Notes: a model not told the origin generated them from the sequence alone. Counted from the first letter of the stretch, positions 242 to 54,762 are shown. The stretch: 64,000 bases of DNA from Schmidtea polychroa (GCA_044892525.1 CM097885.1:2110001-2174000), one strand, 5' to 3'. A program made the numbers and translations.

Positions 242-736
242 ATGTTTTCAAAAACAAGGATATCGGGTAAAAAACAACCAAAAGTTCCACCAACAACTAG
301 TTATACTCCATCTAAAGATCTTATTACAGAAAATTTTCCTGCAATGAATCTTATTTCGAAAAATCCTAAACCTAAACCTAAAAGTAAAACCACTAAGAAA
401 GTAAAAGTTGTTAAAAATCATCGGAGTTTCCCGTTTTTCAATACATTGTTAAAGGCACCAAGTATGAAAAGAAACAGTATTTTGCAATCATTTCCAAATT
501 ATGTTGTCGATGATTTACTCGATATTATACTTAAAGTAGTCAAAGGCAAGATTAAAATCAGTAAATCTAAAAAGCAATTATTGAGTAAACATAGGAAACC
601 TTTGCTATCATTAGTAAATAATAAAAATCGTCAACAAATGAGAAAAATTATATATAAACAACAAGGGGGATTTATCGGTGCATTGATACCTTTAGCAATA
701 TCATTATTAGGTGGAATAATAGGAAGTCGATCATAA
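242..736 (+). CDS. Maverick small basic protein with C-terminal QQGGF plus hydrophobic tail (putative virion core protein)
   Basis: Lys-rich 164 aa ORF ending KQQGGFIGALIPLAISLLGGII, located between the ATPase and integrase. Confidence 0.7.
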   Translation: MFSKTRISGKKQPKVPPTTSYTPSKDLITENFPAMNLISKNPKPKPKSKTTKKVKVVKNHRSFPFFNTLLKAPSMKRNSILQSFPNYVVDDLLDIILKVVKGKIKISKSKKQLLSKHRKPLLSLVNNKNRQQMRKIIYKQQGGFIGALIPLAISLLGGIIGSRS

Positions 737-739
737 ACA

Positions 740-967
740 ATGGGTGCTAATCCTTCATTACCAGACATTAAATTTAATATTAAATCTTCTTGTTGTAATG
801 GAGAAGATTTGGACGAACCCGGAAGACGAAGCCGGTTTTGGTGGAGTGGCAAAATTAAGGAAAAGAGTTCCGAATTCGAAAAAGGAAACACAGAAGTGGT
901 TATCAGACCAGCTTGCGTACAGTTTGAACAAACCAATGCGGAAACGATTCCCAACAAGAACATATAA
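740..967 (+). CDS. Small overprinted ORF with N-myristoylation motif (MGANPS) and di-Cys
   Basis: ATG in strong context (aacaATGG) 3 nt after the upstream stop. MGxxxS and SSCC motifs. Overlaps the integrase 5' end in another frame. Confidence 0.5.
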   Translation: MGANPSLPDIKFNIKSSCCNGEDLDEPGRRSRFWWSGKIKEKSSEFEKGNTEVVIRPACVQFEQTNAETIPNKNI

Positions 968-1853
968 AACATATGGAATAAATGATTTATGGCAAATGGA
1001 TTTGATGGAGATGATACCCTATTCGAAAATTAACAATGGGTATAAATATATTTTAACATGTATTGATGTATTCAGTCGGTTTGCCCGAGCAATACCCGTC
1101 AAGGCAAAATCTGCAGATGAAATGTCCAAAGCTGTTAATCATTTATTTAAAGATGGACATCCTAAAAACTTGCAAACTGATTTAGGTATTAATATTATTA
1201 TTTTTATTATTATTATTATTATTTTAGGTAAAGAATTCTACAACAGTAAAGTCAAGCAAATCCTCAATAAATTGAAAATAAACCATTACTCAGTACATTC
1301 TCAATACAAAGCTGCTCATGTTGAAAGATTTAACCGAACTTTGAGAGATAGATTAAAGAAATTATTCGTGCATCAAGGTAATAAAAAATGGGTATTGGTT
1401 TTACCAAAAATAATAACCAGTTATAATCACTCATCACATCAAGGACTGAATGGATTAAGGCCGATTGATATCACGTCAAAAACAATCTATTCTAAAAAAC
1501 CTGAAAAAATTACAAAACCGAAATATAAAGTAGGTGACCATGTTAGAATTAGTAAAATTAGTGCATCACCATTTATTAAAAATTTTGATACGAATTGGAG
1601 TGATGAAGTCTTTGTAATTTCAAAAATAAATACTAAACAGAATCCTGTAATGTATGTCATCAAAGACAATGATAACAATATTGTACAAGGAAAATTTTAT
1701 GAACAAGAATTACAAGTTATTCCTCCCCCAAAAGTATTTAGAATTCAGAAGATATTGAAAACTAAAAATAAAGGCAAGGATAAACAATACTATGTCAAAT
1801 GGCATGGTTATCAAAACCCATCATGGATATCAGAAAAGGATCTAGTAAAGTGA
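798..1853 (+). CDS. Retroviral-like DDE integrase with C-terminal chromodomain; predicted intron 1186-1227 (337 aa spliced)
   Basis: WQMDL, CIDVFSR, QTD(L)GKEF after splicing, VERFNRTL, and chromodomain YYVKWHGY..SW. Likely start is ATG 798 (MEKIWTNP..GFGG). Confidence 0.93.
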   Translation: MEKIWTNPEDEAGFGGVAKLRKRVPNSKKETQKWLSDQLAYSLNKPMRKRFPTRTYKTYGINDLWQMDLMEMIPYSKINNGYKYILTCIDVFSRFARAIPVKAKSADEMSKAVNHLFKDGHPKNLQTDLGINIIIFIIIIIILGKEFYNSKVKQILNKLKINHYSVHSQYKAAHVERFNRTLRDRLKKLFVHQGNKKWVLVLPKIITSYNHSSHQGLNGLRPIDITSKTIYSKKPEKITKPKYKVGDHVRISKISASPFIKNFDTNWSDEVFVISKINTKQNPVMYVIKDNDNNIVQGKFYEQELQVIPPPKVFRIQKILKTKNKGKDKQYYVKWHGYQNPSWISEKDLVK

Positions 1854-2861: not shown

Positions 2862-3222
2862 TTCCGATATTATTAGTATGTATAGTGATAGCCAATCTGG
2901 CGGTGAATTACCATATTTTATTGGTAAACAGTACGGATCAGGTTGGTTAAAAACAATAGGGAGATTTGCACTTCCTATTCTTAAACGTATTGGTAGTTTT
3001 GGTATGAAAACTGCAAAAGATGTGATTATGAATGAACAGAAAATATTACCATCCCTAAAAACAAATGCTTTAGCTGAATTAGGTAAGGTTCTACCTGGAG
3101 TTGCTGGTATGTTTCAAAAAGATACGCCTCCAGCCCCGGCTCATGCTCCAAAACGTAAAGGACATGGAATAACACGTATAAACAAACGAATGAAAGGACA
3201 TGGAACTATATTTGCAAAATGA
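2854..3222 (+). CDS. Maverick core/membrane-active-like small protein
   Basis: QSGG.LPYF.G.QYGSG followed by amphipathic WLKTIGRFALPILKRIG and a basic C-terminus; lies directly upstream of the major capsid gene. Confidence 0.7.
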   Translation: MANSDIISMYSDSQSGGELPYFIGKQYGSGWLKTIGRFALPILKRIGSFGMKTAKDVIMNEQKILPSLKTNALAELGKVLPGVAGMFQKDTPPAPAHAPKRKGHGITRINKRMKGHGTIFAK

Positions 3223-4442
3223 TTTGTGGTAAATCCGAATTATGTATATTTGATAGACCGTCGCCCCAGGCAGTAATAGAATTTGGTGCCTTTGAGGAAG
3301 TTTTTCCTATGAATTCAATTACTGATAGTAGAAATGATATCGAGTTTTATATTAATGGTTCGCAAACTGAATATTTAGATTTGAACGATACTTTATTGAC
3401 TGTTCAGATCAAGGTTGTAGATAAAGATAGAAAGGTTTTGGATGCCAATGCGGATGTATTACCAAACAATTTCATGTTTCATACTCTGTTTAAAGATGCA
3501 GTGTTGGGATTTAATAATATCAAGATTGAGGGTGGAAATAATACATTCATTCACAAGGCTTTGATAGAAACTATTTTAAATTACAATTCAGATACTAAAA
3601 ATACCTGTCTTACACCTATGGGTTATGCAGCAGCAGATGATGAAAGAAAAAAGTGGGTTAAAGGTTCAAAAGTATTCACTATGTGCTCATCATTACAACT
3701 TGATTTTATGGATCAACCGAAATATTTACTACCGGGAGTTAATATACATATTAGACTGAAAAGATCTGATTCTGCATTGTCTCTTACTAGTGCAACTGGT
3801 GCACCAATATGTCAATTAGTTGATGCAAAATTATTGGTGAGAAGAGTTCGAGTAGACCCGTCAGTATTAGCTGGTCATCAATTGGGTCTTAATTCAAAAC
3901 ATGCAATTTATCCTTTAAAAACAAAGGAAATTGTACAATTTGCTATTGCTAAAGGTGCTTCATCATTCTATAAAGAACAAATATTTGGTGACAGAAGAAT
4001 GCCTAATTTTATTCTGGTAACATTTCAAAGTGAAACGCAATATAATGGATCGTATACTGCTTCCAGCTCAATTTTCAAAAATTTTGGTGTTACTTCATTG
4101 ACTTTATCGAAAAATACTGATTATAGAGAAACATATACTCAAGATTTCGAGAATGATAATTACTGTGCGACATATATGCAGAGTATTGTTAGAAATCTGG
4201 GTTATTTAGATAAAAACTTGAATTGCGGAATAACTCTTGAAGAATTTAAAAGCAAATACCCATTTTTCACATTTGTTCTAGCTCCCGATTTTGATTTAAA
4301 TCAGAGTCAATTACCACAAAACGGGAATTTACGACTGGATATAAAGTTTGCAAAGGCCATTACTGAACCGGTACATGTTATTATATATGGAGTATTTGAA
4401 AATGAAGTTCAAATTACTGCAAATAGAACCGTGCTAGTATAA
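3219..4442 (+). CDS. Major capsid protein (double jelly-roll, hexon-like)
   Basis: Intact 407 aa ORF with CGKSELCIF..P.Q, YLDLNDT.L, QPKYLLPGV and GNLRLDIKF motifs typical of Polinton MCPs. Confidence 0.9.
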   Translation: MICGKSELCIFDRPSPQAVIEFGAFEEVFPMNSITDSRNDIEFYINGSQTEYLDLNDTLLTVQIKVVDKDRKVLDANADVLPNNFMFHTLFKDAVLGFNNIKIEGGNNTFIHKALIETILNYNSDTKNTCLTPMGYAAADDERKKWVKGSKVFTMCSSLQLDFMDQPKYLLPGVNIHIRLKRSDSALSLTSATGAPICQLVDAKLLVRRVRVDPSVLAGHQLGLNSKHAIYPLKTKEIVQFAIAKGASSFYKEQIFGDRRMPNFILVTFQSETQYNGSYTASSSIFKNFGVTSLTLSKNTDYRETYTQDFENDNYCATYMQSIVRNLGYLDKNLNCGITLEEFKSKYPFFTFVLAPDFDLNQSQLPQNGNLRLDIKFAKAITEPVHVIIYGVFENEVQITANRTVLV

Positions 4443-4854
4443 ATGTATACAGAAACATCAAAAAGTTGTCATGGAGTAAGTTTTTCAATACTGTTTAATT
4501 TATTAAAGTAGTTCTGTTCAGGTCAATAGAATTGGAAAACAGATATTGGGAAATGAATTTGTAGGAGTTTTTCCTCTCGATAAAATTCCATATTTGAGCA
4601 ATAATCAAGCCATAATCGTCAATACTCAATCGTCTCATCTTGGTGGAGAACATTGGATTGCTATATATGTGAAACCTAGTAATATATTCGTGTTCGATCC
4701 TATGGGTTTCTATTACCCTGCTTTGTTGGTATCAAAACTACAAACAATGGGGAAACCTATTGTATATAATAAAACAATGTTTCAAAATCCCTTGACACAA
4801 ACATGCGGTCAACATTGTTTAGCTTGGTTGTTGTATAAAAAATTTGATGATTAA
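4443..4854 (+). CDS. Adenain-like cysteine protease; exons 4443-4475 and 4522-4854 (121 aa)
   Basis: FVGVFPLD, GEHWIA, FDPMG and Q....TCGQHC supply His/Asp/Gln/Cys. ATG directly follows the MCP stop; a GTAAGT...TTCAG intron removes an in-frame TAG. Confidence 0.85.
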
Positions 4855-4879: not shown

Positions 4880-4935
<56 letters not shown>

Positions 4936-4953
4936 TTATTATTATTATTATTA

Positions 4954-4990
<37 letters not shown>

Positions 4991-5020
4991 ATTATTATTT
5001 TATTATTATTATTATTATTA

Positions 5021-5063
<43 letters not shown>

Positions 5064-5076
5064 ATTATTATTATTA

Positions 5077-5126
<50 letters not shown>

Positions 5127-5146
5127 ATTATTATTATTATTTTTTT

Positions 5147-5177
<31 letters not shown>

Positions 5178-5253
5178 ATATTATTATTATTATTTTTATT
5201 ATTATTATTATTATTATTAATATTATTTTTATTATTATTATTATTATTATTAA

Positions 5254-5284
<31 letters not shown>

Positions 5285-5285
5285 T
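4875..5285. repeat. (ATT)n microsatellite inside the element
   Basis: Imperfect ATT array with a poly-T run. Confidence 0.95.
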
Positions 5286-5387
5286 TTAATTAAATTTATT
5301 TTGAAAAATATTATTATCTAACTACACAATCATTGTGCATGCACAAAGTCATGACTAACAAAGATATGCAATCCCATTTGATACCAT

Positions 5388-5474
5388 TTGATTGGCTGAT
5401 AGAGGAAAAAGTATTCAGGAATGTGTCTTAATTCTGATTGGTTGAGACATGGAAATATTCATGTTCTATATAAA
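5388..5474 (+). promoter_or_regulatory. Putative Pol II promoter for the spliced pPolB unit
   Basis: Two inverted CCAAT boxes (ATTGG at 5391 and 5437) and TATATAAA at 5467, about 80 nt upstream of ATG 5551. Confidence 0.6.
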
Positions 5475-5550: not shown

Positions 5551-6094
5551 ATGTCTAACAATAACAACAACATATTAAGAAGTCTATTGACTACCGGTAA
5601 TTTTATTATTTATTTATTTATTATATTTTATTCTTTATTTTTTAGATGTGTTCGATTGGTATCAAGTTACTGAGGACGAAAGAATTTTGAATGTTGATAG
5701 GATTTTCGGTAAATTTAAATATTTTATTTTTTATGAAATTATTATTTTATTTAGAACCTATTATAATTAGCGACGATGATGATGTCGTATTTATTGGGCA
5801 AACTAATGCCCCAGTTTCCTGTAATGTTTTTAATGAACAAAGTAAATTTATTTTATTTTAGTATATTATTTTTTAAAAATCATTTTAGTGTTTAATGTTG
5901 ACATGGACGCTGAAATCGATGTTCCAATTAATAATGATTCTATTGAGGAGATGAATAATGCACTGACTTCTATCGATGAGCTGAATTATGTGGATAATAC
6001 AATCGAGGAGCTTGTTAATGTGGATAATGCCCTCACTTCTATTGAGGAGGTTGCTGATAATGAATCAGATTCCGACATGGAATCACGATGTTAG
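5551..6094 (+). CDS. Four-exon acidic module (5551-5596, 5646-5708, 5755-5841, 5889-6089/6094): a 133 aa protein or the pPolB N-terminus
   Basis: Three 46-49 nt GT-AG phase-1 introns keep the frame open: MSNNNNNILRSLLTTDVFDWYQVTEDERILNVDRIFEPIIISDDDDVVFIGQ... Confidence 0.78.
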
Positions 6095-6250
6095 TATTTA
6101 TTTATTTTTATATATTTATTTTTTTTTTTAAAAACCTTGTAAATTTCTTAAATACTTTTTAAACATTTTCTTTAAAAACTTATTTATAAAAACTTATTAT
6201 GAAAATGAAGAAAATATTATGTTGAAATTGAAAATGTTATGTTGACTAAA

Positions 6251-6383
6251 TGATGAAAATATTATGATGAAGAAAATGATGAAAATATTATGATGAAGAA
6301 AATGATGAAAATATTATGATGAAGAAAATGAAGAAAATATTATGATGAAGAAAATGATGAAAATATTATGATGAAGAAAATGT
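6251..6383. repeat. 26-bp tandem repeat
   Basis: About 5 copies of gaagaaaatgatgaaaatattatgat. Confidence 0.9.
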
Positions 6384-6509
6384 TTAAAAAGTATTTAAGA
6401 AACAATAGTTTTAAAATATTCCTTGTAGTTTGCAATGAGCAACTACATTAGTTAAAATAATAATAATAATAATAATAATAATATTAAAAATAGTAATAAA
6501 AATATATCT

Positions 6510-6955
6510 TGTAGTCTGCAGTGAGCATGCAGCTACATATCTCTTTTATCATGATTGCCCCAATAAATGTAGTCTGCAGTCAGCATGCAGCTACATATCT
6601 CTTTTATCATGATTGCCCCAATAAATGTAGTCTGCAGTCAGCATGCAGCTACATATCTCTTTTATCATGATTGCCCCAATAAATGTAGTCTGCAGTGAGC
6701 ATGCAGCTACATCAAACTAATTATTTATTACGTAATACATACCCTTTATTAAATGTGTCTAAATGCAGCTGCGTCAAACTAAATATTTATTACGTAATAT
6801 ATACCCTTTATTAAATGTGTCTAAATGCAGCTGCAACAAACTATTTATTACGTAATAATTAACCCTTATTAAATATAGTCTGCATGCAGCTGCATCAACT
6901 ATTTATTATGTAATAATTATAATCTTTAAATGTAATCTGCATGCAGCTGCATCAA
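6510..6955. repeat. 58-bp hairpin-bearing tandem repeat followed by related ~60-bp units
   Basis: Units start at 6510, 6568, 6626 and 6684 (tgtagtctgca...tgcagctaca). Later units carry TTACGTAA and CAGCTG. Confidence 0.9.
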
Positions 6956-7080
6956 TAATGATAATAATGATAATAATAATAATAATAATAATAATAAAAT
7001 CACACATTTATAGTTTACAAGACTTTATTAATATAAATACAATTTCATGATTAATATTAATTGATAAATATAATTAACAG

Positions 7081-10000
7081 GCAAATTATATCCACATTAC
7101 TGCCAGGCTTCAACTGGTCACTCAAATTTATGTCACAAAGTGATGAAAAAATATTATGGTCGTAAATTTTATGGCATCAAGTACTATATATGCCCAATAT
7201 GCGAGACTTCCCATAGCATTAAATATTTAGAGTTTTACAGTATACATAAATCCCATTTAAATCAGTTCTCTTTAAATAAAAAGGATTTATTTAACAAATT
7301 GCGAAATACCGCAAAACCTATAATTAAAACTAATGTAAATAATACAAAACCTGTAAATAATAATACAAAACCTGTAAATAATAATACAAAACCTGTAAAT
7401 AATATTACAAAACCTGTAATTAATAATAATACAAAACCTGTAAATAATATTACAAAACCTGTAAATAATAATACAAAACATGTAAATAATATTACAAAAC
7501 CTGTAAATAATAATAATACAAAACCTGTAAATAATATTACAAAACCTGTAAATAATAATACAAAACATGTAAATAATATTACAAAACCTCTAATTAATAA
7601 TGTTATTAATGTAAATAATAATTTAAAAAGACCTGCTGTTAGTATTGGGTCTGATGCTCCCTCTAAAATAAATAAATTAGAACAAATAACTGTGGTTAAT
7701 AATATTCAAGTAGGCGGTTCAGTCGATATTGACGATGAACCTGAAATCGAAATTGATTTTAAGGGGGTTCGAAAGAATCTAAGATTTAATGTAGAAAAGG
7801 ATAACATCATTCAAATATCCATAACCGATAAAATCGTTAATAAGTTAAAACATGAAATAATCAGAATGGGGTCGGTGAAAATACAATTCTCTGTATTGAT
7901 TCAATTTGAAAAAGATGGTGAAATTAAAGATAATTTCTTCTCGAATAGGGCAGAGGCTTTTTCAGATAGTTTTCTAAGTGAGGGGGTTCACAAATTAAAT
8001 AATAAAATAGAAAAATTCACATATTTGGGTAGTGGATGGCGGGTTGTTAAAATCAAAGAAATAGATTTTATATTAACAAAATTTACACATATGAATAGGC
8101 TAGCTGGACATAGTTACATCCCCACCCCATCATCTTTAAAATCTAAAAATGCAATAGTAAATGTTAAAAACACCGATGATATGTGCTTTATATATAGTAT
8201 TTTAGCACTTTTAAAACGTAATGTCGTACATAGTCATAGGAACCGTGTTAGTTCCTATGAAAATTATCTTGACGAGTTAAATTTTGACCCCATTTCCGAC
8301 TGTCCAATGAAACTATGTGATATTCCTAAATTCGAGATGAAAAATAAGGATTTAAATTTAGCAATAAATGTTTTAACTTATAGAACGACCCCTGCTAAGC
8401 CTTTTGAAAATATAGTTGACGATAATTATATTCCACATCATCCTCAATTAGATATTATTCACCGATCTAAGGTTATAGGTGGTGAACCCATATACTTACT
8501 TTTATTGGAAGACGGTGATAATTTTCATTACACCGCAGTTTTTAATTTGCAAAGACTAATGAATTGTCGCTCTAGCAGTGAATGTGGCGTTAGACTTCAA
8601 GTGAACTGGTGCCCCCATTGTCTTAACGGATTTAGACATAAAAATGCATTTGATATTCATGTCGCCTTATGCATTAAAAACCAGATAGGTACTACTTTAT
8701 ACACGCTACCCAATGATAAAAATTTAATTTTTCAAAATTATGCGAAAACCATAACCCCACCATTCGTGATATATGCAGACTTTGAATCAATTTTACCGGG
8801 GGATATAATACACCATCAAAAGCATTTGCCAATAACAGCAGGTTTATTATTAATAAATAATTATAATAACTCTAAATTTTATTATGAGTTTGTTGGGGAT
8901 GATTGCATCTTATCTTTCTTGCGTAAGGTGGAGGAAATTGCTATGACAATTGTCCTGCCATATTACGAAATTAATGGGAAAAAGCCCATGCAAACCTTGT
9001 CTTTCGCTGAAGAGCGGGCCTTTCGTGATTCCAGAACCTGCTACCTTTGTAAAAAATTCATTAAGAATAGAGTTAGGGATCATTGTCACTTTTCAGGTAA
9101 GTATCTTGGTGCTGCCTGTAGGAAATGTAATGTTTCTCGACGAATTCAGAAACAGTTACCTGTGGTTTTTCACAATTTGAGGGGGTATGATCTTCATCAT
9201 ATTTTGAAGTATGGTTTGAATAATTTTCCTTCTTGGGAATTAAATATTATTCCGACCACTACTGAGAAATTCATCTCTCTTATCGCGTACATTAACAAAT
9301 TGTCTGTTCGTTTTATTGACAGCATGCAGTTTGTTAATTCATCTTTAGCAAAAGCGGTTAAGACTCTTTCCGATCTGCCTTTAACTTCTTCTGTTTTCGA
9401 TGGCGCAATTGTTCGAGCCAAAGGTATCTTTCCTTATGACTTTGCCACATCTCTTGAGGTTCTGGAATCGACTCTTGAATTGCCTCCTATTTGGGATTCT
9501 GTGTCTAATGATGAATATGCATTAGCCCAAGTTATTTGGACTCAGCAAAACTGCAACAACATGTTAGATTACATGTTAATCTACCTTAAATTAGACGTGT
9601 TTCTCCTCGCAGACTATTTTCAACAATTCCGTGAAAAGGCCATTGCTTACAATGGTCTTGAGCCTCTTAATTTCTATGGCATTCCCGGTATGTCTTGGGC
9701 CTCTGCGCTTATGACATTAACGGAACCCATTGAACTTCTGCAGGACATGGAAATGTTTAATTTCTATGAAGGAGGGATACGGGGTGGGTTAACATTTGTT
9801 AACAAACATTATGTTGCAAGTTCTGAAGACACAGAACTCTTGTATATTGATATTAATAACTTGTATGGTTGGGCCTTAAGCCAAAATCTGCCTTATGCTG
9901 ACTTTGTTTGGGTGTATGATGATCTTGATTCTGTCTTGAATGAATGTATAAATGCTGATATCGATAACCTTCCATATGGCTATACTATGGAGGTAGATAT

Positions 10001-11240
10001 CGATATACCTGTTTGTTTGCATGACTTTCTGAATGATTTTCCTCTTGCTCCGGAAAAGATGTGCCCGCCAAATTCTAAAGTTGAAAAGCTGATGCTCACG
10101 CATTGGCCGAAGAAGAACCATGTTCTTCATTGGCGACTTCTCAAGTTGTATATAGAATTGGGGGCTATTATTAAAAATGTACATAGAGCAATCAAATTTA
10201 AGCATGCACCCATTTTTAAATCTTACATAGACAAAAACACTAATTTGAGAGCCAATTCGACATGCGAATTATATAGGGATCTATACAAATTATTTAATAA
10301 TAGTCTGTATGGGAAATCCGTAGAAAACCTTAAAAAACGGATGAATTTGAGGTTATGCAATTCATCTGAAAAGATGATTGTATATGCTTCAAAGCCGACT
10401 TTCAAGAAATCTATCAAAATTGATGATGACTTGATTGCTGCACATCTATATAAGGATTCTATATGTTTAGACAGGCCTAGTTACATTGGCCAAACGGTGC
10501 TAGACCTGTCTAAACTGAGGATGTACCAGTTACAGTATAAAGAATTGGCTAAATATAGAAATGAATTTAAATGTGAGATAAATATCGTTGCCGGCGATAC
10601 TGACTCCTTTTTTCTTGAGGTTAGGCACTGTAAGCTTGACATTCTTTTGCCGGCAATGATTCGTGACAATCTTTTAGACACTTCCAACTATGACCCTGCA
10701 CATCCCTTATACTCTAGAAACCTTGATTCTGTGATAGGTAAATTTAAAGATGAAAGTAAAGGTCTAGGGTATAAGGAATGGGTTTTCTTAAGACCCAAGT
10801 GCTATAGCTTGTTAGGGGCTAAAGATCATTTAAAAGCAAAAGGAGTCAGGTTAATAGGTACAGAAATTAGGCACGATTCATATTTAGAATGCTACAATAA
10901 CAACGTAGTATTTTCTGTGCCACAAAGTAGGATAGGGACGCGGAACCATCAATTGTACACATTTAAAAACAATAAAATCGCGTTGACAAACAACGACGAC
11001 AAGCGGTTTTGGGTGGGGAAAAATTCCAGTCTCGCATTTGGTCATTATTTAGCACTAGATGATATAAATGATGATCAAATATTTGAAGAAGTTGGGCCAC
11101 TATTCGGAGGATTAAGTCCAGATTTTGTTTCTGGTGATGAGGAAGTGGGTCCACTTTTCAATGGTTTAAGTCCAGATTTCGATTCTGGTGATGATCCTAA
11201 TGATAAAAGAGATATAGATGATATTTTATTGTCAGACTAA
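7081..11240 (+). CDS. Protein-primed family B DNA polymerase (main exon) with zinc fingers and an endonuclease VII-like insert
   Basis: Exonuclease IYADFES, FHNLRGYD, YLKLDV; polymerase YIDINNLYG, KLFNNSLYGK, GDTDS; KAKGV. Frame is open back to the splice acceptor taacag at 7080. Confidence 0.96.
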
Positions 11241-11624
11241 ACTGTGATAAATGTTAATATATCTTTAATAAAACGTTTCTTCTACATTGTTGTATTATCT
11301 AAATTTTTTATTGAAAACTTGTTATAGTTTTCACATTTCTTACAAATGTTAAACACTTGTATAAATATATTTATTAATATTGATAAAGTTTTTATAAATC
11401 ATGTTTAACTATTGAAAGAAATTTTTATTTGAAATGTATGTATGAGCTCACCACTACATATATGAGTTGAGTGTACATTTAAAGTATAATATTTAGAATT
11501 TAGAAAGTTTTACCTTGAATATTTTTACCAGTACCTTTGTGAACAATAACCATGTGACTTGTTGAGTGTGAGTAGTACCCTTGCTAGCAATACCCATAGG
11601 GAGACAGAATATCTTGTCGGATAG

Positions 11625-11634
<10 letters not shown>

Positions 11635-11714
<80 letters not shown>
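11635..11714. repeat. (AAT)n microsatellite
   Basis: Near-perfect AAT run. Confidence 0.95.
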
Positions 11715-11717
<3 letters not shown>

Positions 11718-11754
11718 CTTAGAAACTAAAAACTTAGAAAATAATAATTATTTT

Positions 11755-12948
11755 AATAAATGACCTTGAAAATTAAATGACCTTGAAAAGTAAATGACCT
11801 TGAAAAAATAAATGACCTTGAAAAAATAAATGACCTTGAAAATAATAAATGACCTTGAAAATTAAATGACCTTGAAAAAATAAATGACCTTGAAAAAATA
11901 AATGACCTTGGAAATAATAAATGACCTTGATGAGTCATCGTTCTAAAAATATTAGACATCGTTGGGTGAGTCATTGGGTGAGTCATTCTCTTTGTTAATA
12001 TTAATGATGATGATACCTTCTATGGCTCATTCGAAAGGTCTTGGACTGAGCTTTAAGATGAGGTATCGTCCAATAAATTCGGATAATGGGAACATTAATT
12101 TTTGGGATGAAAAAGAGTAGGGGCCCGCCAGGCCAATTAATAATTATATGACCTTGAAAATGATTTTTGGTAAAATGTTAATAACTTTGTCAATAATAAT
12201 GATGATGATACCTTCATTAGCTCATTCGAAAGGTCTTGCATTGGGCTTTAAAATAAGTGTTTGATTAATAAAATCTGTTGGCGGGAACATTAATTTTTGG
12301 GATGAAAAAAAGTAGGGGCCCTCCCGGCCACATAATTATAAAAAAAAAAAAAAAAATGACCTTGAAAATAATAAATGACCTTGACCTTTTATTAAAAATT
12401 TGACCTTGACCTTGAAAAAAAATTAAATGACCTTGAAAATAATAAATGACCTTGAAAAATGGTCTCGGTAAAACTTTAATAACTTTGCCGATGTTAATGA
12501 TGATGATACCTTCTATGGCTCAATTGAAAGGTCTTAGACTACGCTTCAAAATAAGCTATCGATTAATAAATTCGGATAATGGGAACATTAATTTTTGGGA
12601 TGAGAAAAAGTATGTCCCCGCCCGGCCAATTAATAATATTTTGAATAATAATAATAATTTAACGTTGAAAAGATGGTGGTCATCAAATGTTAATAACATT
12701 AAAACTATTAAAGATATATATGATACCTATAGCTCATTCGAAAGGTCTTGGACTGGGCTTTAAGATGAGGTATCATCCAATAAAATCCGTTGGTCGGAAC
12801 ATTAATTTTTGGGATGAAAAAAAGTGTGAGCCCGCCAGGCCAATTAATTAAAACAAAAAATTTAAAAAAAAATTTTTCCCGGGGGGGGGGGGAGGGGGTA
12901 TATGTGGCGCGGGGAGCTCCTGGTCTGGGGAGCTCCAATCATACTACT
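11755..12948. repeat. Repeat-rich right terminal region (probable TIR)
   Basis: About 17 TGACCTT(G) motifs; four related ~140-bp units (near 12004, 12196, 12493, 12718); G tract 12880-12898; terminal ACTACT. The left TIR is not visible. Confidence 0.75.
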
Positions 12949-13682: not shown

Positions 13683-13777
13683 GCCACTGATAGGAAGCCA
13701 CTGATAGGAAGCCACTGATAGGAAGCCACTGATAGGAAGCCACTGATAGGAAGCCACTGATAGGAAGCCACTGATAG
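13683..13777. repeat. 14-bp minisatellite
   Basis: About 7 copies of gccactgataggaa. Confidence 0.95.
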
Positions 13778-16700
13778 TTTACTTTTGCGTTTTCAATTTC
13801 AAATATTAATTTATTTAAGTAAAAATCCAAATTCAGAAATATGAGGTATAAAGAAACGACAAACAGATATGTCAAATGAACATAATGATGAAGGGGTCAT
13901 ATGAAATTGGGTGCTACATCTTCTATGATACGTCCGTGAACCCAGAGTGACGTCAGGACATTGCTAGTCCTTCTGAGAGGCTCACCTTTAGCTCAGGGGG
14001 TACGTTCCTTCTTGACATACCATATTTGCTGAGTTAATTCTTCTAGCTACATATATGCTTTGTGTCTTTTTTATCCCGTTTTGTCTTTTGACTATTACTT
14101 CGTCTTTCATTCTTACTTCTCTCAATCTAAATAACTCGATGCAGTCTTCTCCCAAAACTTTGATAAATTCTCGTTCGATGTGTGGGTATGAGCTCCACAG
14201 TAGCATGGTAAAGTTCGTTTTGTTATCATGCATTCCCTAGTTTGTGCTTTATCCTCTGTCAATTCGACTAAGCTCCGTAATTTGCCTCTTGTTGGTTTGT
14301 ATAACTTTTGGTCTCTTCTTTGTTAATTGTATTGTATATTTTCCACGATACTACACAAGATATTATTAGAATGGATTAAAGATTGTAACCTAATGAGCAG
14401 AAATCAGAAAGCGTGTGGTGACATCGGATGGATGTAGAGTTGGATATTTCGGCAGCGTTTTAAAGTATTCCACAAGATATGATGTGGTATACATTCGCAA
14501 AAAGTATATCGATAATTAGCTAATTAATTTTTAATTAATTCTAGTTTTTTATAATTATTTCCTTCTGCGGACCCTCATTTATTATTTTATTATATTTGAA
14601 CTCTTATCATATTATTTTTCTGGAAAATATTTATTTTTGATTTTTAATTAATGTTTTTGTACTTTTAATTATTATTGTGAATTTGATGTTTTTATTGATT
14701 TTCACTTTGTTTTTGTGCCTTTTTCATTAAATCCCAACAAAATGTTTTATTAATTTTTGACTTATAATTATTAACATTTTATTGATTTGCACACGAGTTT
14801 AACAGACAAATTATCAACTTATAGCAGATTCAACACAGAAATGATGTAATATAAGCATTTTATTTTATTTTCATTATATTTTGAATTACTCAGCCACTTT
14901 ATGATCTTGCTGATTTTCTCTGTTAGAGAATTTTAATTTATTGAAATAAGTAATGTAACCAAGGGCTACCATTAAGGTCAATGACTGCCAAGGTTGGTGT
15001 GACAAATCGCTGGTCACAGATTCTGTACTAGATCTTATTGTTAATTTTATCAACACATTTTTGTAATATTTTGCTATAAATTTTATTCACATAGCCAAAA
15101 TAAAATTTAACAAAATAATTAATCATAAATTACTGAGAGTATAGGCTACAGAGTACAGACAGAGGTCATAGTATTACATTTACAGTAAAATAAAGTAAAA
15201 AAGTGTCTTGTTTTTTTCTTATGTAGGTGGATGATTTTTTAGGTACATGAAGTGCATTTGTACATGTTTAAATATAATATCGGGCTTAACCCGTAACTCT
15301 CTTCCTTGGCTACACCACTGATCACAAAACCTGAAAGTTTGACTTCAACAACCTTCAATTTCTGATGTACCTAATGAATTTCCGGTTCCAAAATAATTTC
15401 TTGTACCATTTCGAGTTAAGATCCACCTGGTTGTCTTATTATCTTATATTTTTTATATTTTCAGGATTTCAAGGTAAATTTCTTTTTTTATTAATAAGTA
15501 AGATTCATTCATAAAATATTTCAAATTTGTGAATTTAAATATTAATTTACATGAAATATTTTTTATTTTAATAATATTATATTTGAAAATAGATTGGTAA
15601 TCTCTGAATCATTATGTTGCCTGGGTAGGCATATGCCTTAGCCATCTGATAATATTCAGGCATCAATTCGCGGAATTCTCCTGAATCACCGCAGGATATC
15701 TGGCAAAATATTTGCATTAACTTCTTCTGCCATTTGTTGCTTTTGTTTAACTTGTTATCTATTTATTACTATTTATATTATTAATCTATTTATAGTAATT
15801 ATTTGATTCTATTCAGATCCTTTATTATTGACCTATCTATGCACGCCCCAAGCGAGCCCAGGCCTAACCCTAACACTGGATTTAGAAAGTACTCTTTGAG
15901 TGAATACATTAATATCCGGTCTCAAGTGACGTACAGATGATCTCATATTTATATGTCATGCTTTTATTTAGATCATTCCGCACTTCAGAGAGTTGGTGCA
16001 GGCAGAGACATTGTTGTGCATGATTCTGGGAAGGAATTCAATTTATTGCACGGAATTATACCATTGGATTGATGGTTAAGGGGTGCAATGAAGGTCCGTT
16101 TTGATGCTAAGGTATCCATCAATAGGTGGTTGTGATCGAGCTTACATGTTCTCTTTATTCATATTGTCTTCTTTTTGCTCCCGAGTGTCCATGCTCAATG
16201 TTTTTAGATTTCAAACCGAAGATATTTTTGTAACTAAACGGCAAATACGACTTTGCCCAATAATCGGATGCTTTGTAGAACGGATCTATTATTGTTAGAA
16301 CTTTCAATTTGTCCGCTTTCATTCGCTTTCGGTTGTTGTAAATCCATTTTTTATTGTTTTTTACTTTGATATTTATTTTTTAAAAATGTCGAAAGTAAGT
16401 TTTATTTTTGTCTTTATAAAATATATTTTACAAAAGATTCTCGTCACTTCTCGTTTCACTCTATTTTTGATACTCCTTTTAACTCTTTTTGTCTCTAATT
16501 TTACTCTACCTTTTGTCTCTAGTTTCGTTCTATTTTTGCTTTACTTTTCGTTCTCCTTATTGTTCTAATTTCTCGGTCAACTGTTCTGCTTTATATAGTC
16601 TGTTTCATTTGTGGCACTGGCGACAGATTCTGTTTTCCATTTTACTTTTCCTCTAGGTCAGCCTTATCTCTGACAGATATCAAGATATTTTTCCATTTTC

Positions 16701-19181
16701 TTTTTTTGTTAAGCCGCCTTCTCCCAACAATTTTGCTACCTTTGACAAGCTGTCAAAATACGGCTTTTTCTCTTATTTTGTTTTTCTGGAATTTGAAATT
16801 CCACCTTCATTTGTACTTCTTAATTAACAATGACCTTTGTTTTAATTATTTGTTTGTTTCCTTTTATTTGATTTATCTTTCTAATTTTTAATTTCTTTTT
16901 ATTTCCGTTTTCTTTTCTGAGTTCCCATAGATCGTCCCGTTTGTCATGGCGATCTCCCCCCCCAGGTAATTTATTTATTTATTATGTTTTTTTATCATTT
17001 AAGTATCTTCAACAAAATTAACACACCACTTGAAAAACGAAATGATACAAGAAACGGAATCCGAAAAAGAAAAGATATTTGAAAACAAGAAACAGAAGAA
17101 AGTATCAAAATGCAAAATATGCGAATCAACATGATGAGAACGACGAGAAATATTTCATTAACAGGTGATGAGGAAGACCATGTGAGTAGTCTACAACTTA
17201 ATGAAGGTATTGGACAACTAAAGGAAAAATCGAGGAAAAACAAGAAAGCGGAAATGAAAGTAAAGTTCCGAGCGAAAGCGATAGTGAGAATATTGAAATA
17301 AAGATGAGAAACGACAAAGAGGAAACAACGAAATATGTAACAGAAATACTCTATGTGGTATTGAGGAACTACGAATTTATAGAACTAACCTCCTATAAAC
17401 GTTTCACTCAAAGAATACAGAAACTAGAAAAGACCTAGGGAGGAATAATACCTAGTGAAGAGATGCAAGCGACGCAAATCATCAGGGCCCGCGATATAAT
17501 CATATTTGGCATTTTTATATAATTTAATAATTTTAAAAAATTTAAGTTTAAGATAATTTAAGATTATAAGTATCATGGGATTTCATAAGTAATAAATAGG
17601 ATTACTAAATAAAATGTTTTTTAAAAACTATATCAGTCAGTAATTGCAAAGACGGATTACTGACGGATTACATCGAATTGCCTGACTCTCAAGGGACCTG
17701 ATCTTGTTTGTCTTTGATGAATCTCATTCCAATGTCGTGATCGTTGGTGATAATTGCTGTTGGTGGTCTCATCGGTCTACCGTTTTTCATCATGATGATG
17801 TTTTTCCTATCTATATCTTCTGGATCTTCCACATATATTTCACCTTTTACTTCATTGAATATCGCGCTGTTTTAAAGTTGCAATCTACATTTTTGCATTT
17901 CTGCTTCATATATAATAATGGGCTGTTTTGTTCGAGATACTTTATTGGTGGCTTTGAAATGCGATTTGGTTTTCATTTGATAATTTGCTGCGTCGAATTT
18001 TGCTTCGTATTCTTTTATCTCTATTGAATAGTTTTCGATAACTAATACTCCGGAGACTTCTCGCAGGGGATAGGTTCCTCCTTGACATGCTCCATTTGCT
18101 GAGTTAATTTTTCTAACTACATATATGCTCTGGGTCTTTTTTATCCCGTTTTGTCTTTTGACTATTACTTCGTCTTTCATTCTTACTTCTCTCAATCTAA
18201 ATAACTCGATGCAGTCATCTTCCTAAACTTTGATTAATTCTCATTCAATGTGTGGGTATGAGCTCCACAATAGTATGGTAAAGTTCGTTTTGTTATCATA
18301 CATTCCCTAGTTTGTGCTTTATCCACCATCAATTCGACTAGGCTCCGTAATTTGCCTCTTGTTGGTTTGTATAACTTTCGGTCTCTTCTTTGGCAATTCT
18401 TGCCATTGATTTTTTTAAAATTTAAAATTTTAATTTTTAATTATGATAATAATAACAACGAACATGTGACAACGTACAGCACAGCCACCAACTAAATTTC
18501 AGCACCAGCGTCTCTTGCGATGGGCATTTAGCGGAGTTACGAAGGGAAATGCGGTAAGGTGTGAGCAATGACAGGAAAAGCCTGACAATAGCAAAGAAAA
18601 ACATAGGTTTTTCTCTCAACTCGTAACCTACCTTTAGAAGTAGAGCTTACCTGCTTATTGAATTTCAACGACTGAGGTTGGCATTGGTATATTGATGGTA
18701 AAAAATTAAAATTTTCATGAATGCCTTTAAGTAAATCTATCAGCGAAACTAGGACATTTAAACAACAGACCGAACGAATTTCAGGTTCCAAAATATTTTC
18801 TTAAAGCTTTTATATTTAAGATCCAGCTGGTTGTCTTATTTTCTAATTTTTTTAAATCTTAAGGATTTCAAGATAAATTTAGTAAATAAAACTCATTTAT
18901 AAAATTTATAAAATTTGTGAATTTAAATATTAATTATTAATTTACATGAAATGATTTTTGTTTTAATAATATTATATTTGAACATTTAGCTAATGAAAAA
19001 CTGAATAAATTTATGAAATGTTACATTATTTAATATTAAATCATTTCATTAGCTGTTAAAAAAGATCTTATTACAAATGCAAATATTATTATTATTACAT
19101 TATCAATAATATTATTAGCAAATCGGACACGAGACCTTTAAGAGATCCAAATTTCATGGAATGTGCAAAGGATAATTTTTG

Positions 19182-20593
19182 TCATAATTTTTCAATTCTG
19201 CACCTAAGCAGCAATTTATCTCTTTTGGCTGCTAATTCATAGGTTGGGTCTTCATAAATCCAAATTGGATCATTTCTGTCATTTGACGGTTTCCTCCATC
19301 CGGCATCATCAGGGCAATCTGAATATTTCATTGACTGGCTCCTATAAATGCTGCCTTTTGCTGGATCGATCACATCGATTGTCACCGATTGATTAAACGG
19401 CCAATCCAATTGCTCATCATTTGCCCCACGCATCACACAGAAACCAACATCAATACCCCAACAACCCCCAATCACCACTGTCAAGCACATTTTGTAACCG
19501 ATTGGCCCGGAATAAAATGTCTCGCTGTAAATCCATTCATCTCTCTTTTGTTGTGATAATTTATCGATTTCCCATTCAAAAAATCCATTATTTATATATT
19601 TTTCACTTCCTAATTTTCTTTGCCGAATTTCTTTGGCGCATTTCGCCATTTCAAGCTGCAGCTGAATCTCAAATTCAAACATTTCAATACATCAATAAAT
19701 CACCTTTTCATTCTCCCGTTGTAGCCGCTGCTCGCATTTCTCTTTCATCTCATCAATTTGCTGTTGACATTTTGATTCAATCACCTCAATTTGCTGTCTG
19801 ATCTGCTTTGCATCATTAACAAATCAATAACAAATCAAATCAATAATCAAACTTGATTGATTGATCCAATATTTGTCTCCATCTCCATTCTCAATGAGCG
19901 ATTCTCATTCTTCAATGCCACCATTTCCTCATTCAATTCTTCTATTTCTGCTCTGTTCTCCGCCTCTTTCCTTTCAATATTGCACAATTTCACCTACAGT
20001 CACAAATATCAATAAATTAATTACAAATAAAAATTAACATTAATATTGATAATTTCGTCCCGCAATTTCACATTCTCATATTTCATTGCCTGCATCTCAT
20101 TGCACAAATTGCTGATCTGATCAATTAGTAATTTGCTATGGACTACATAGTTCTCATTGAGATGGACTCTCATTTCATCGTTCACCACCTCATTGGTTTC
20201 GCATCCAATTCTATTGAACGGGCATCTGATTGGCTGATTGTTGCATTCCCTCATGTGGCTCTCCATCAGCTCTAATTCATCTTTGAATTGACAATTTTGC
20301 ATCGGGCATTTCACTATCACTTCTGAAATCCTTAAATTGGCTACATGATCTTCAGAAACATCTTTATTGAAATTTATCATTTTCTTTCCGCAATGTTTTG
20401 CTGCTCCTGGACAGAATTTATCTTTTCCATCCAAATAATGCTCAATGCAATCAGAACAAAAGCGACAACCGCAAGGAGCATTGCAAGCCTTTATCATTAA
20501 ACATTTGCAAATTCTGCATATCAATTCACTGCTGATTTCATTATCAAATTCAAATTTATTTCTCTTCATCATTTCCCATACGCTTGCAAACAT
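19182..20593 (-). CDS. TRAF-family protein (RING, TRAF zinc finger, coiled coil, MATH); exons 20593-20039, 19993-19853, 19802-19704, 19661-19182
   Basis: CRICK...PCGCRFCSDC RING; CPMQNC and CPFNRIGC fingers; MATH motifs FYSGPIGYKMCL and DEQLDWPF. Three 42-50 nt GT-AG phase-0 introns keep the frame. Confidence 0.9.
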
Positions 20594-39189: not shown

Positions 39190-54447
<15,258 letters not shown>

Positions 54448-54762
54448 TACAATATGAAGTTTTGTGGTCGCTAAATAAATGATTCAACAGTGCTCTCAGC
54501 ACTGTGAGCAAACATTAAAGGAGCAAGGCAAAAAGTTCTTAATAGGTCCATATAATAATTAATGAGTGATTACAACCGATAATATGCATGTTTTTATCAT
54601 TATACAAAACATTAAGTAGTTAATATTAAATAGAAAATGAATATTTTATGCTTAATACCATGGCAAGTCACATTCAACTTACCCATCTCTTTGCACGCCA
54701 ATTTCAACTTTTCACCAATCAAATTCAACCAAATTCAACTTTTTATACTCCAAATTTGTTTC

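What the first reader, a model, noticed from the sequence alone, without database searches (positions are those of the whole stretch)
5551..11240. Maverick pPolB appears to be a five-exon spliced gene with a hidden acidic N-terminal module
Seen in sequence: the long pPolB ORF has only a GTG start call, but its frame is open to an acceptor (taattaacag|gc, 7080). Four small upstream exons are separated by GT-AG introns of 49, 46 and 47 nt, then 991 nt (6090-7080). All four introns are phase 1 and splicing gives one uninterrupted 1518 aa frame behind a CCAAT/TATA promoter. The fourth donor (t|GTTAGT) contains an in-frame TAG, so retention would give a 133 aa protein instead. Inference: a virus-like element using host-sized spliceosomal introns, with a possible splice switch between a small regulator and the polymerase. 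Polinton genes are normally annotated as single ORFs.
Basis: partly seen in the sequence, partly recalled or inferred. Interest (0 to 1): 0.9.

Follow-up and report, generated by a model that had tools for sequence, protein, structure and literature searches.

The report
Spliced polymerase gene of a Maverick
A virus-like Maverick element in an animal genome very probably makes its DNA polymerase from five exons joined by ordinary introns, which is unusual for these elements, but no RNA data yet confirm it.

Summary
The coordinates, the GT..AG ends, phase 1 for all four introns, the 1518-codon joined frame and the stop inside donor 4 are all correct. One detail is an artefact: an ATG sits at 7143, one codon after the "GTG start".

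The element is a Maverick/Polinton with an integrase, an adenovirus-type protease, a capsid-like ORF, a protein-primed polymerase and terminal inverted repeats. At least 150 near-identical copies exist.

The key result is a second family in the same genome whose polymerase is about 65-68% identical. It has the same five-exon layout in 4 of 4 copies. Its exon lengths differ from the window's only by multiples of three, and donor 4 and the acceptor position are the same.

The 20 codons between acceptor 7080 and ATG 7143 evolve as coding sequence: 12 of 20 residues are kept despite 26 of 60 base changes, a level reached by 0 of 20000 random placements. No in-frame ATG lies upstream, so an upstream exon must supply the start.

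RNA proof is missing. No run on record as RNA was available, and no contig joins across intron 4. The proposed splice switch is untested.

Verdict: a spliced gene is likely (about 0.7). It is a new variant of a known kind and of moderate interest. This scan has noted spliced Maverick genes in other genomes.

The parts
5467..5474 (+). TATA box (TATATAAA) about 77 nt upstream of the ATG. Inverted CCAAT boxes lie at 5391-5395 and 5437-5441.
   Evidence: Read. A TATATAAAC motif also lies about 60 nt upstream of the ATG in family B.
5551..5596 (+). Exon 1 (46 nt), which holds the ATG and ends in phase 1.
   Evidence: The ATG and donor are kept in 28 of 28 aligned family-A copies. A variant subfamily has a 52-nt exon 1 and family B a 49-nt exon 1; both are in frame.
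5597..5645 (+). Intron 1 (49 nt, GTAATT..TTTTAG).
   Evidence: It is 44 nt in the variant subfamily and 46 or 47 nt in family B, so the length changes are not multiples of 3.
5646..5708 (+). Exon 2 (63 nt).
   Evidence: Against family B, 22 of 63 bases differ (9, 3 and 10 by codon position). Only the proposed frame is open in both families.
5709..5754 (+). Intron 2 (46 nt, GTAAAT..TTTAG).
   Evidence: A 9-letter loose end at 5750 in run X1 matches exon-2 bases 5695-5703 (table 7). This is a hint only, because it is too short for the tool's bridging rule.
5755..5841 (+). Exon 3 (87 nt), which encodes a hydrophobic-acidic motif (IIISDDDD).
   Evidence: The variant subfamily has +21 nt and family B has -24 nt; both changes are in frame.
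5842..5888 (+). Intron 3 (47 nt, GTAAAT..TTTTAG).
   Evidence: It is 53 nt in family B. Single-base deletions occur in copies L029-L032 and L034.
5889..6089 (+). Exon 4 (201 nt), an acidic and internally repetitive coding stretch that ends in phase 1 on a T.
   Evidence: Family B has 87 nt here. Net length variants in run X1 are -84 and -75 nt, both multiples of 3 (tables 5 and 5c).
6090..7080 (+). Intron 4 (991 nt). The donor is T|GTTAGT, with an in-frame TAG at 6092-6094. The interior holds tandem arrays of 52-, 58- and 62-nt units. The acceptor is ttaacag|G.
   Evidence: Length is 868-1338 nt in 34 family-A copies; the donor is GTTAGT in 34 of 34 and the acceptor is AG in 33 of 34. Family B has the same donor and an intron of 1631 nt in L042, longer in the other three copies. 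The RNA fold has z = -5.5.
7081..11240 (+). Exon 5, the polymerase ORF, with its stop at 11238-11240.
7083..7142 (+). Twenty codons upstream of the internal ATG, with a Cys/His-rich knuckle-like pattern. They are under coding constraint and no ATG precedes them in frame.
   Evidence: Against family B, 26 of 60 bases differ but 12 of 20 residues are kept. Six of the 14 changed codons are synonymous. None of 20000 random placements reaches this identity. Both other frames have stops in family B.
7143..7145 (+). Internal ATG (MKKYY), a possible alternative start.
   Evidence: The Met is kept in family B. Relatives P0009 and P0021 begin at the homologous MEKYY.
7146..7260 (+). C2H2-like zinc finger of the leader.
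   Evidence: The same finger occurs in P0009, P0013, P0016, P0021 and P0051; C37, C40 and H55 are invariant.
7338..7622 (+). An in-frame 21-nt tandem array encoding NNTKPV-type repeats, with variable copy number.
   Evidence: ORF lengths range from 1321 to 1423 aa among copies.
9027..9134 (+). Endonuclease VII/HNH-like zinc insertion inside the polymerase.
   Evidence: PF02945, E 0.0015, below the cut-off; PHROG endonuclease VII families.
8772..11237 (+). Exonuclease and polymerase core: YADFES, DINNLYGW, KLFNNSLYG, GDTDS and KCY.
11467..12948 (.). Right terminal inverted repeat and right end of the element.
   Evidence: This stretch recurs in both orientations about 15 kb apart at other loci, and matches stop at about 12950.
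744..1853 (+). Integrase ORF (rve core plus chromodomain-like tail).
   Evidence: PF00665 scores 33.4 bits against a cut-off of 32.6.
3219..4442 (+). Capsid-like ORF (a double jelly-roll lead).
   Evidence: Feature score is 0.98 to a cluster in which 65% of members carry PF21738. This is a lead only.
4507..4854 (+). Adenovirus-type cysteine protease ORF.
   Evidence: (PF00770, 29.4 bits against a cut-off of 21.3).

Best explanation
The polymerase gene of this Maverick family is a five-exon gene. Transcription starts behind the TATA box near 5470. The host spliceosome removes three 46-49 nt introns and one long, repeat-filled intron (6090-7080). Translation starts at ATG 5551. The product is about 1518 aa: an acidic leader (exons 1-4), then a Cys/His knuckle and a zinc finger, an Asn/Thr/Lys/Pro repeat, and the protein-primed polymerase. 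What is shown: the structure, its conservation in a diverged sister family, and coding constraint on the stretch that only splicing can bring into a translated frame. What is inferred: that exon 4 is the exon joined to 7081, and that the mRNA exists. Conjecture: ATG 7143 and retention of intron 4 (stop TAG inside the donor) may give a shorter polymerase and a 133-aa acidic protein as further products.
For: (1) One search confirms the exon and intron arithmetic.
(2) Family B, whose polymerase shares 903 identical residues of 1321-1385, has the same layout. Its exons are 49/63/63/87 nt plus exon 5. All introns are GT..AG and phase 1. The joined frame is open in 4 of 4 copies.
(3) Exon length differences between the families are +3, 0, -24 and -114, all multiples of 3. 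Intron differences are -3/-2, -2, +6 and +640 or more.
(4) A variant family-A subfamily changes exon 1 by +6, exon 2 by -3 and exon 3 by +21. Its intron 1 changes by -5 and its intron 3 by -1.
(5) Codons 7083-7142 keep 12 of 20 residues despite 26 of 60 base differences. Six of the 14 changed codons are synonymous, including a TCA/AGT serine switch. None of 20000 random placements reaches this identity. The other two frames carry stops in family B. No in-frame ATG lies between stop 7071-7073 and 7143.
(6) Donor 4 is T|GTTAGTATT in both families. The acceptor AG sits at the same codon position while the intron sequence upstream of it differs.
(7) Intron 4 length varies from 868 to 1338 nt in 34 copies. 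The donor is kept in 34 of 34 and the acceptor in 33 of 34.
(8) Exon-4 length variants in run X1 are -84 and -75 nt net.
(9) The closest outside relative, P0001, has an acidic leader in the same ORF as its polymerase. That leader aligns colinearly with exons 2-4 (score 54; 12 of 500 shuffles reach it). P0051 has acidic stretch, finger and polymerase in one ORF.
Against: No contig joins any of the four predicted junctions in the 4 runs laid. In run X1 a 418-nt contig spans intron 1 unspliced. X1 is only guessed to be RNA, and no run on record as RNA was found.

Donor 4 has T at +3 and the acceptor has a poor pyrimidine tract, unlike introns 1-3 (read).

The Met at 7143 is kept in family B. Two relatives, P0009 and P0021, begin exactly at the homologous MEKYY. 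This fits an independent start.

An ATAAATATA motif lies 14-33 nt upstream of the acceptor in both families and could be an internal TATA box.

The in-phase join itself is expected by chance about 70% of the time.

The similarity of the 20 codons to the knuckle of P0016 is not significant (505 of 2000 shuffles reach it).

The two families share one genome, so gene conversion could inflate shared features.
Confidence: 0.68

Rival explanations
1. There are two separate genes. One is a small three-intron gene (5551-6094) for a 133-aa acidic protein ending at TAG. The other is an intronless polymerase gene transcribed from its own promoter inside the repeat region and translated from ATG 7143.
For: An ATG lies at 7143, and its Met is kept in family B. 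P0009 and P0021 start at the homologous position. A TATA-like motif is conserved upstream of 7080 in both families. TGT TAG is conserved at the end of exon 4. AATAAA occurs in each 58-nt repeat unit downstream of that stop. Donor 4 and its acceptor look weak. No joint across 6089/7081 was seen. The literature describes core Maverick genes as intronless (passages of PMC8097293 and 10.1101/2022.07.12.499685).
Against: This reading does not explain the frame-specific coding constraint on the 20 codons upstream of ATG 7143, which have no ATG of their own. It also does not explain why the AG stays at the same codon position in both families. Relatives P0001, P0019 and P0051 carry acidic leaders in the polymerase ORF itself.
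Confidence: 0.2
2. The AG at 7080 is an acceptor for spliced-leader trans-splicing, a process known in flatworms (recalled knowledge). The polymerase mRNA would then begin there and be translated from ATG 7143. Exons 1-4 would form an unrelated upstream gene.
For: The acceptor is conserved and so is the Met at 7143. Intron 4 is unusually long and variable. That the host is a flatworm is my guess from genome size, four large chromosome-scale contigs and 30% G+C. It was not tested.
Against: The 20 conserved codons would still be left untranslated. A leader ending in AUG joined at 7081 would read the +1 frame, which stops at 7139-7141 (frames).
Confidence: 0.05
3. The small exons are a chance pattern in AT-rich non-coding DNA and there is no gene upstream of the polymerase.
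For: GT, AG and ATG are frequent in AT-rich DNA. Family-A copies are too alike to test (6 variable exon sites and 0 in introns 1-3).
Against: The same exon chain, with diverged sequence, in-frame length changes and kept splice sites, is found in the variant subfamily and in family B. In exon 2 only the proposed frame is open in both families.
Confidence: 0.02

Closest known systems
Canonical Maverick/Polinton protein-primed PolB genes (vertebrates, nematodes)
   Same: The polymerase has the same Exo and Pol motifs and the HNH/endonuclease VII-like zinc insertion. It sits in an element with an rve integrase, an adenovirus-type protease, a capsid-like ORF and long terminal inverted repeats.
   Different: Those genes are described as intronless single ORFs (passages read in PMC8097293 and 10.1101/2022.07.12.499685). 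PMC10120064 assumes endogenous viruses lack introns. Here the coding sequence very probably starts in four small upstream exons, and one intron is about 1 kb of tandem repeats.
Adenovirus E2B transcripts for DNA polymerase and pre-terminal protein (recalled from textbook knowledge, not checked in a call)
   Same: This is also a protein-primed polymerase of a related virus lineage. Its main ORF lacks its own initiator and receives its first codons from a short upstream exon by host splicing.
   Different: In adenovirus the upstream exon adds only a few codons. Here the upstream exons add about 133 residues of acidic leader, and an internal ATG could still serve as a start.
Spliced zinc-finger leader on a Maverick polymerase, and intron-split Maverick genes, noted earlier by this scan in other genomes (e1-7469974, e1-7768772, e1-7498836; AI notes, unchecked)
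   Same: Small upstream exons with short introns are joined to the polymerase ORF, and the leader carries zinc fingers.
   Different: Those are other genomes. Here the finger lies in the main exon and the leader exons are acidic. The last intron is long and repeat-filled and carries an in-frame stop in its donor.
P0001, the closest outside relative (1252 aa, unnamed ENA contig)
   Same: It is 53% identical over 1134 aa. Its acidic N-terminal leader has a hydrophobic-acidic motif that aligns colinearly with exons 2-4.
   Different: Its leader and polymerase lie in one uninterrupted ORF. It has no zinc finger and no NNTKPV repeat.

Membership tests
Maverick/Polinton element | [quoted passage not shown] | tested here: met
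   Motifs YADFES, DINNLYGW, KLFNNSLYG, GDTDS and KCY are present. The ORF is 53% identical to P0001. A representative search found 9175 relatives at E <= 0.001. Pfam's polymerase model gave no hit at E <= 0.01.
Maverick/Polinton element | Retrovirus-like (rve) integrase | tested here: met
   PF00665 scores 33.4 bits against a cut-off of 32.6 on ORF 744-1853.
Maverick/Polinton element | Adenovirus-type cysteine protease | tested here: met
   PF00770 scores 29.4 bits against a cut-off of 21.3 on ORF 4546-4854.
Maverick/Polinton element | Double jelly-roll major capsid protein | tested here: inconclusive
   Pfam and PHROGs gave no clear hit. The Atlas feature search scored 0.98 to a cluster with PF21738 on 65% of members. 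This is a lead only.
Maverick/Polinton element | Packaging ATPase | not tested
   No ORF in the window gave an ATPase hit. The left part of the element lies outside the window.
Maverick/Polinton element | Terminal inverted repeats and target-site duplication | tested here: inconclusive
   The stretch 11467-12948 recurs in inverted orientation about 15 kb apart at other loci. The left end of this copy lies before the window start. Target-site duplications were not examined.
Spliceosomal GT-AG introns in the polymerase gene | GT..AG ends and an open joined frame | tested here: met
   for the window. The same holds in 4 of 4 family-B copies.
Spliceosomal GT-AG introns in the polymerase gene | Positions and phases kept in diverged relatives; exon length changes in threes, intron changes not | tested here: met
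Spliceosomal GT-AG introns in the polymerase gene | Coding constraint on sequence that is translated only if spliced | tested here: met
   12 of 20 residues are kept and none of 20000 random placements reaches this.
Spliceosomal GT-AG introns in the polymerase gene | Junctions present in RNA | tested here: inconclusive
   One search lists no joint at any of the four junctions in 4 runs, none of which is on record as RNA. One 9-letter loose end at 5750 equals exon-2 bases 5695-5703, which is below the tool's 31-letter bridging rule.
Intronless single-ORF Maverick polymerase | Coding sequence begins at an ATG of the main ORF | tested here: inconclusive
   ATG 7143 exists and is conserved. The 20 codons upstream of it are also constrained as coding.

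The most novel reading that the evidence does not exclude
Intron 4 is a regulated switch. Its weak donor carries a conserved in-frame stop (T|GTTAGT in both families). Its long, highly structured repeat interior sets how often the transcript is spliced. Spliced transcripts would give the full-length acidic-leader polymerase. Unspliced transcripts would end as a small acidic protein. An internal start at 7143 could add a leaderless polymerase. A Maverick would then set its replication level through host splicing, much as adenoviruses and retroviruses balance their products.
Probability: 0.2. Interest if true: 0.75.

Novelty: new variant of a known kind. Interest (0 to 1): 0.55.

Why it matters
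Core Maverick/Polinton genes are usually treated as intronless. Passages in PMC8097293 and 10.1101/2022.07.12.499685 say so, and pipelines use prokaryote-style gene callers on that assumption (PMC10120064).

This family is very abundant and apparently young: at least 150 near-identical copies, many with an intact ORF. Its polymerase appears to need host splicing for its true N-terminus. That implies nuclear, host-dependent expression. It also implies that intron-blind annotation truncates the protein by about 150 residues and hides a conserved leader.

The leader and the stop inside donor 4 give a concrete, testable handle on how such elements regulate replication.

Tried and rejected
- **RNA runs.** No RNA holder was listed. 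Four runs were laid (X1, X2, X5, X4). No joint appeared at 5596/5646, 5708/5755, 5841/5889 or 6089/7081. All data are contigs of unknown or guessed kind, so this is neither support nor refutation.
- **Family-A copies alone.** In 28 aligned rows (27 copies plus the window) there are only 6 variable exon sites and none in introns 1-3, so they have no power.
- **Protein database.** The exon-4 peptide found no longer protein. The finger leader found no longer protein. The database seems not to hold this species.
- **P0016 knuckle.** Its similarity to codons 7083-7142 is not significant: 505 of 2000 shuffles reach it. BLASTP aligns only the finger.
- **SUMO-interaction-like motif as a general leader feature.** A strict pattern matched 1 of 60 leaders of 60 aa or more, taken from 70 of the 150 listed representatives whose match begins early. 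The idea was dropped as a general feature. The motif is shared only with the nearest relatives.
- **A 46-nt intron giving the protease ORF its ATG (4443-4475 / 4476-4521).** All 4 family-B copies have a 1-nt deletion in that putative exon, so it is not confirmed.
- **Inverted-repeat scan of 1-22000.** It found only TTA/TAA microsatellite pairs.
- **Pfam, PHROGs and PDB sequence searches of the big ORF.** They gave only the weak endonuclease VII zinc-motif hit and one chance hit.
- **Earlier notes for this genome.** There are none.
- **Papers not held.** Kapitonov & Jurka 2006 and Krupovic & Koonin 2015 are not held. What they say on introns is known to me only through PMC8097293.
- **Supplements.** No supplementary files were opened.


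Full report
**What is there.** The window is G000:C1:2110001-2174000 of a 781-Mb assembly with four very large contigs. The window has 30% G+C. My guess of a flatworm host is untested.

Positions 1 to about 12950 are the right-hand part of a Maverick/Polinton element:
- an rve integrase at 744-1853 (PF00665, 33.4 bits against a cut-off of 32.6);
- an adenovirus-type protease at 4507-4854 (PF00770, 29.4 bits against 21.3);
- a capsid-like ORF at 3219-4442 (Atlas lead, PF21738 on 65% of the best named cluster);
- a 1385-codon open frame at 7083-11237.

Pfam does not recognise the big frame as a polymerase. It does carry the Exo I, A, B, C and KxY motifs of protein-primed PolB. It is 53% identical over 1134 aa to P0001 and has 9175 relatives at E <= 0.001.

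The last 1.5 kb (11467-12948) recurs in both orientations about 15 kb apart at other loci, so it is the terminal inverted repeat. The family is very abundant. The first look at the 2-kb query gave 2045 candidates. The exon-4 peptide gave 150 scored near-identical matches out of 455 candidates.

**The observation.**
- five exons (46, 63, 87, 201 and 4160 nt);
- introns of 49, 46, 47 and 991 nt, all GT..AG and all phase 1;
- a joined frame of 1518 codons;
- TGT TAG if intron 4 is read through (133 aa).

Two qualifications apply. The "GTG start" is an artefact, because ATG 7143 is the next codon. The in-frame fit across intron 4 is not evidence by itself. Of the three AGs between the in-frame stop at 7071-7073 and ATG 7143, two (7080 and 7140) are in phase with donor 4 (read). 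By sequence, donor 4 (GTTAGT, T at +3) and its A-rich acceptor look weaker than those of introns 1-3.

**Copies of the same family.** In 28 aligned rows (27 copies plus the window) every ATG, GT and AG is kept. However, only 6 exon sites vary and none varies in introns 1-3, so these copies cannot test anything.

A variant subfamily (L029-L033, L035) is more useful. Its exon 1, intron 1 and the start of exon 2 are strongly diverged, yet the ATG, the splice sites and the frame survive. Exon 1 is 52 nt (+6), intron 1 is 44 nt (-5), exon 2 is 60 nt (-3) and exon 3 is +21 nt. Single-base deletions in intron 3 occur in L029-L032 and L034.

In run X1, length variants inside exon 4 are net -84 and -75 nt (tables 5 and 5c). 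Intron 4 ranges from 868 to 1338 nt in 34 copies, with 27 different lengths. The donor is GTTAGT in 34 of 34 and the acceptor is AG in 33 of 34; L028 has AA.

**The decisive comparison.** Searching the genome with P0001 revealed a second family, B (L040, L042-L045). Its polymerase shares 903 identical residues with the window's over 1321-1385 aa. Upstream of it lies the same gene structure:
- a TATATAAAC box;
- exons of 49, 63, 63 and 87 nt;
- introns of 46-47, 44 and 53 nt, then a fourth of 1631 nt in L042 and longer in the other three copies;
- all introns GT..AG and phase 1;
- the joined frame open in 4 of 4 copies.

Exon lengths differ from the window's by +3, 0, -24 and -114 nt. Exon 4 is almost unalignable between the families, yet it ends in both on T|GTTAGTATT, and the first ~25 intron bases are conserved. 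The acceptor AG lies at the same codon position in both (ttaacag|GC and tttatcag|GT), while the intron upstream of it differs.

Most important are the 60 bases between the acceptor and the internal ATG. They differ at 26 positions (7, 7 and 12 by codon position), yet they encode KLYPHYCQASTGHSNLCHKV against RLYPRYCVSSIGHSLICHKN. That is 12 of 20 identical residues. Six of the 14 changed codons are synonymous, including a TCA/AGT serine switch. Every Cys and His is kept. None of 20000 random placements of 26 changes reaches this identity. Both other frames contain stops in family B.

This stretch has no in-frame ATG upstream of it. Such constraint therefore makes sense only if an upstream exon supplies the start. 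Exon 4, in the right phase and with a conserved donor, is the obvious partner. With its final T the junction codon is Cys in both families, which would complete a C..C..H..C pattern.

**Outside relatives.**
- P0001 carries an acidic leader with a hydrophobic-acidic motif in the same ORF as its polymerase. The leader aligns colinearly with exons 2-4 (score 54 against 36.7 +/- 7.1 for shuffles; 12 of 500 shuffles reach it).
- P0019 has a strongly acidic leader.
- P0051 has finger, acidic stretch, finger and polymerase in one ORF.
- Against the model, P0009 and P0021 begin exactly at MEKYY, homologous to the window's MKKYY at 7143. The Met is also kept in family B. These proteins come from intron-blind ORF calls, so they would be truncated in the same way. 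Even so, the conserved Met, together with an ATAAATATA motif 14-33 nt upstream of the acceptor in both families, leaves room for an internal promoter and a shorter isoform.

**RNA.** No run on record as RNA holds the locus. Contigs of four runs show no joint at any predicted junction. In X1 (kind guessed) one 418-nt contig spans intron 1 unspliced.

There is one hint. An X1 contig that lies on the window from 5750 carries nine loose letters identical to exon-2 bases 5695-5703. This is what removal of the 46 nt of intron 2 would give. The overhang is far below the tool's 31-letter rule for bridging, and it could equally come from a DNA copy that lacks the intron.

**How it most likely works.** The gene is transcribed from the TATA promoter and is spliced four times by the host. 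It is translated from ATG 5551 into a polymerase with, in order:
- an acidic leader;
- a Cys/His knuckle and a zinc finger;
- a variable NNTKPV repeat;
- a conserved middle region;
- the exonuclease and polymerase core with an endonuclease VII-like zinc insertion.

All four introns are phase 1, so exons 2-4 could be skipped without loss of frame. Intron 4 is predicted to be unusually structured (-206.8 kcal/mol against -163 +/- 8 for shuffles, z = -5.5). Its ends pair in the minimum-energy fold, which may help an organism with very short introns to splice it. This is inference.

Whether retention of intron 4 yields a functional 133-aa protein is unknown. The only argument for it is that the unusual donor with its in-frame TAG is kept in both families.

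**Comparison with what is known.** Passages I read describe core Maverick genes as intronless in vertebrates (PMC8097293, which cites Kapitonov and Jurka 2006) and in nematodes (10.1101/2022.07.12.499685). PMC10120064 justifies prokaryotic gene callers because endogenous viruses "do not contain introns". PMC11957031 reports introner insertions in dinoflagellate elements, which is a different phenomenon. My full-text searches listed no paper describing a spliced leader on a Maverick polymerase. Repbase reports and subscription papers were not searchable.

This scan has earlier AI notes of spliced Maverick genes in other genomes, including a spliced zinc-finger leader on a polymerase. The trait may therefore be widespread in invertebrate elements. 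The nearest functional analogue I can recall is the adenovirus E2B polymerase mRNA, which takes its first codons from an upstream exon. I did not check this in any call.

**Verdict.** The five-exon model is likely (0.68) on comparative grounds but lacks RNA proof. The splice-switch idea is open. I rate it a new variant of a known kind, with interest 0.55.

Noticed in passing
window 4443-4854: The protease ORF (open from 4507) has no ATG before its catalytic His. An ATG mini-exon (4443-4475) plus a 46-nt GTAAGT..TTCAG intron would supply one. However, all 4 family-B copies have a 1-nt deletion in that mini-exon, so its start remains unexplained.
   Followed up: partly
window 734-900: The integrase ORF also has only a GTG call (744). 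An ATG at 740 opens a different frame that stays open for at least 50 codons. This gene may also be spliced or may start elsewhere.
   Followed up: no
window 6201-6955: Intron 4 consists of three tandem arrays with units of 52, 58 and 62 nt. The 58-nt units hold an imperfect palindrome around GCATGC and an AATAAA. A 27-nt piece of the palindrome is the only interior part shared with family B. As RNA the whole intron folds far better than shuffles (z = -5.5).
   Followed up: partly
window 4883-5288: A (TTA)n microsatellite of about 137 units lies between the protease gene and the polymerase-gene promoter. A complementary TAA-rich stretch lies at 11608-11777.
   Followed up: no
window 7338-7622: An in-frame 21-nt array encodes NNTKPV-type repeats. 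Its copy number varies among copies (open frames of 1321-1423 aa).
   Followed up: partly
L028 (G000:C1:176890653-176894019): One otherwise near-identical family-A copy has the intron-4 acceptor AG changed to AA.
   Followed up: no
window 19182-20620, minus strand: A host-like TRAF gene lies here. One ORF has RING/zf-TRAF hits and one has a MATH domain (PF21355, E 6.8e-17). They are probably exons of one gene.
   Followed up: no
window 13683-17136: This stretch is 94% identical to G000:C1:2945006-2948404 on the opposite strand, about 0.8 Mb away. It lies outside the Maverick and is either a second repeat or a segmental duplicate.
   Followed up: no
window 48001-50000 and 54001-56000: One 2-kb bin has only 6.9% G+C, and another has a GC skew of -0.54 at 40.7% G+C.
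   Followed up: no
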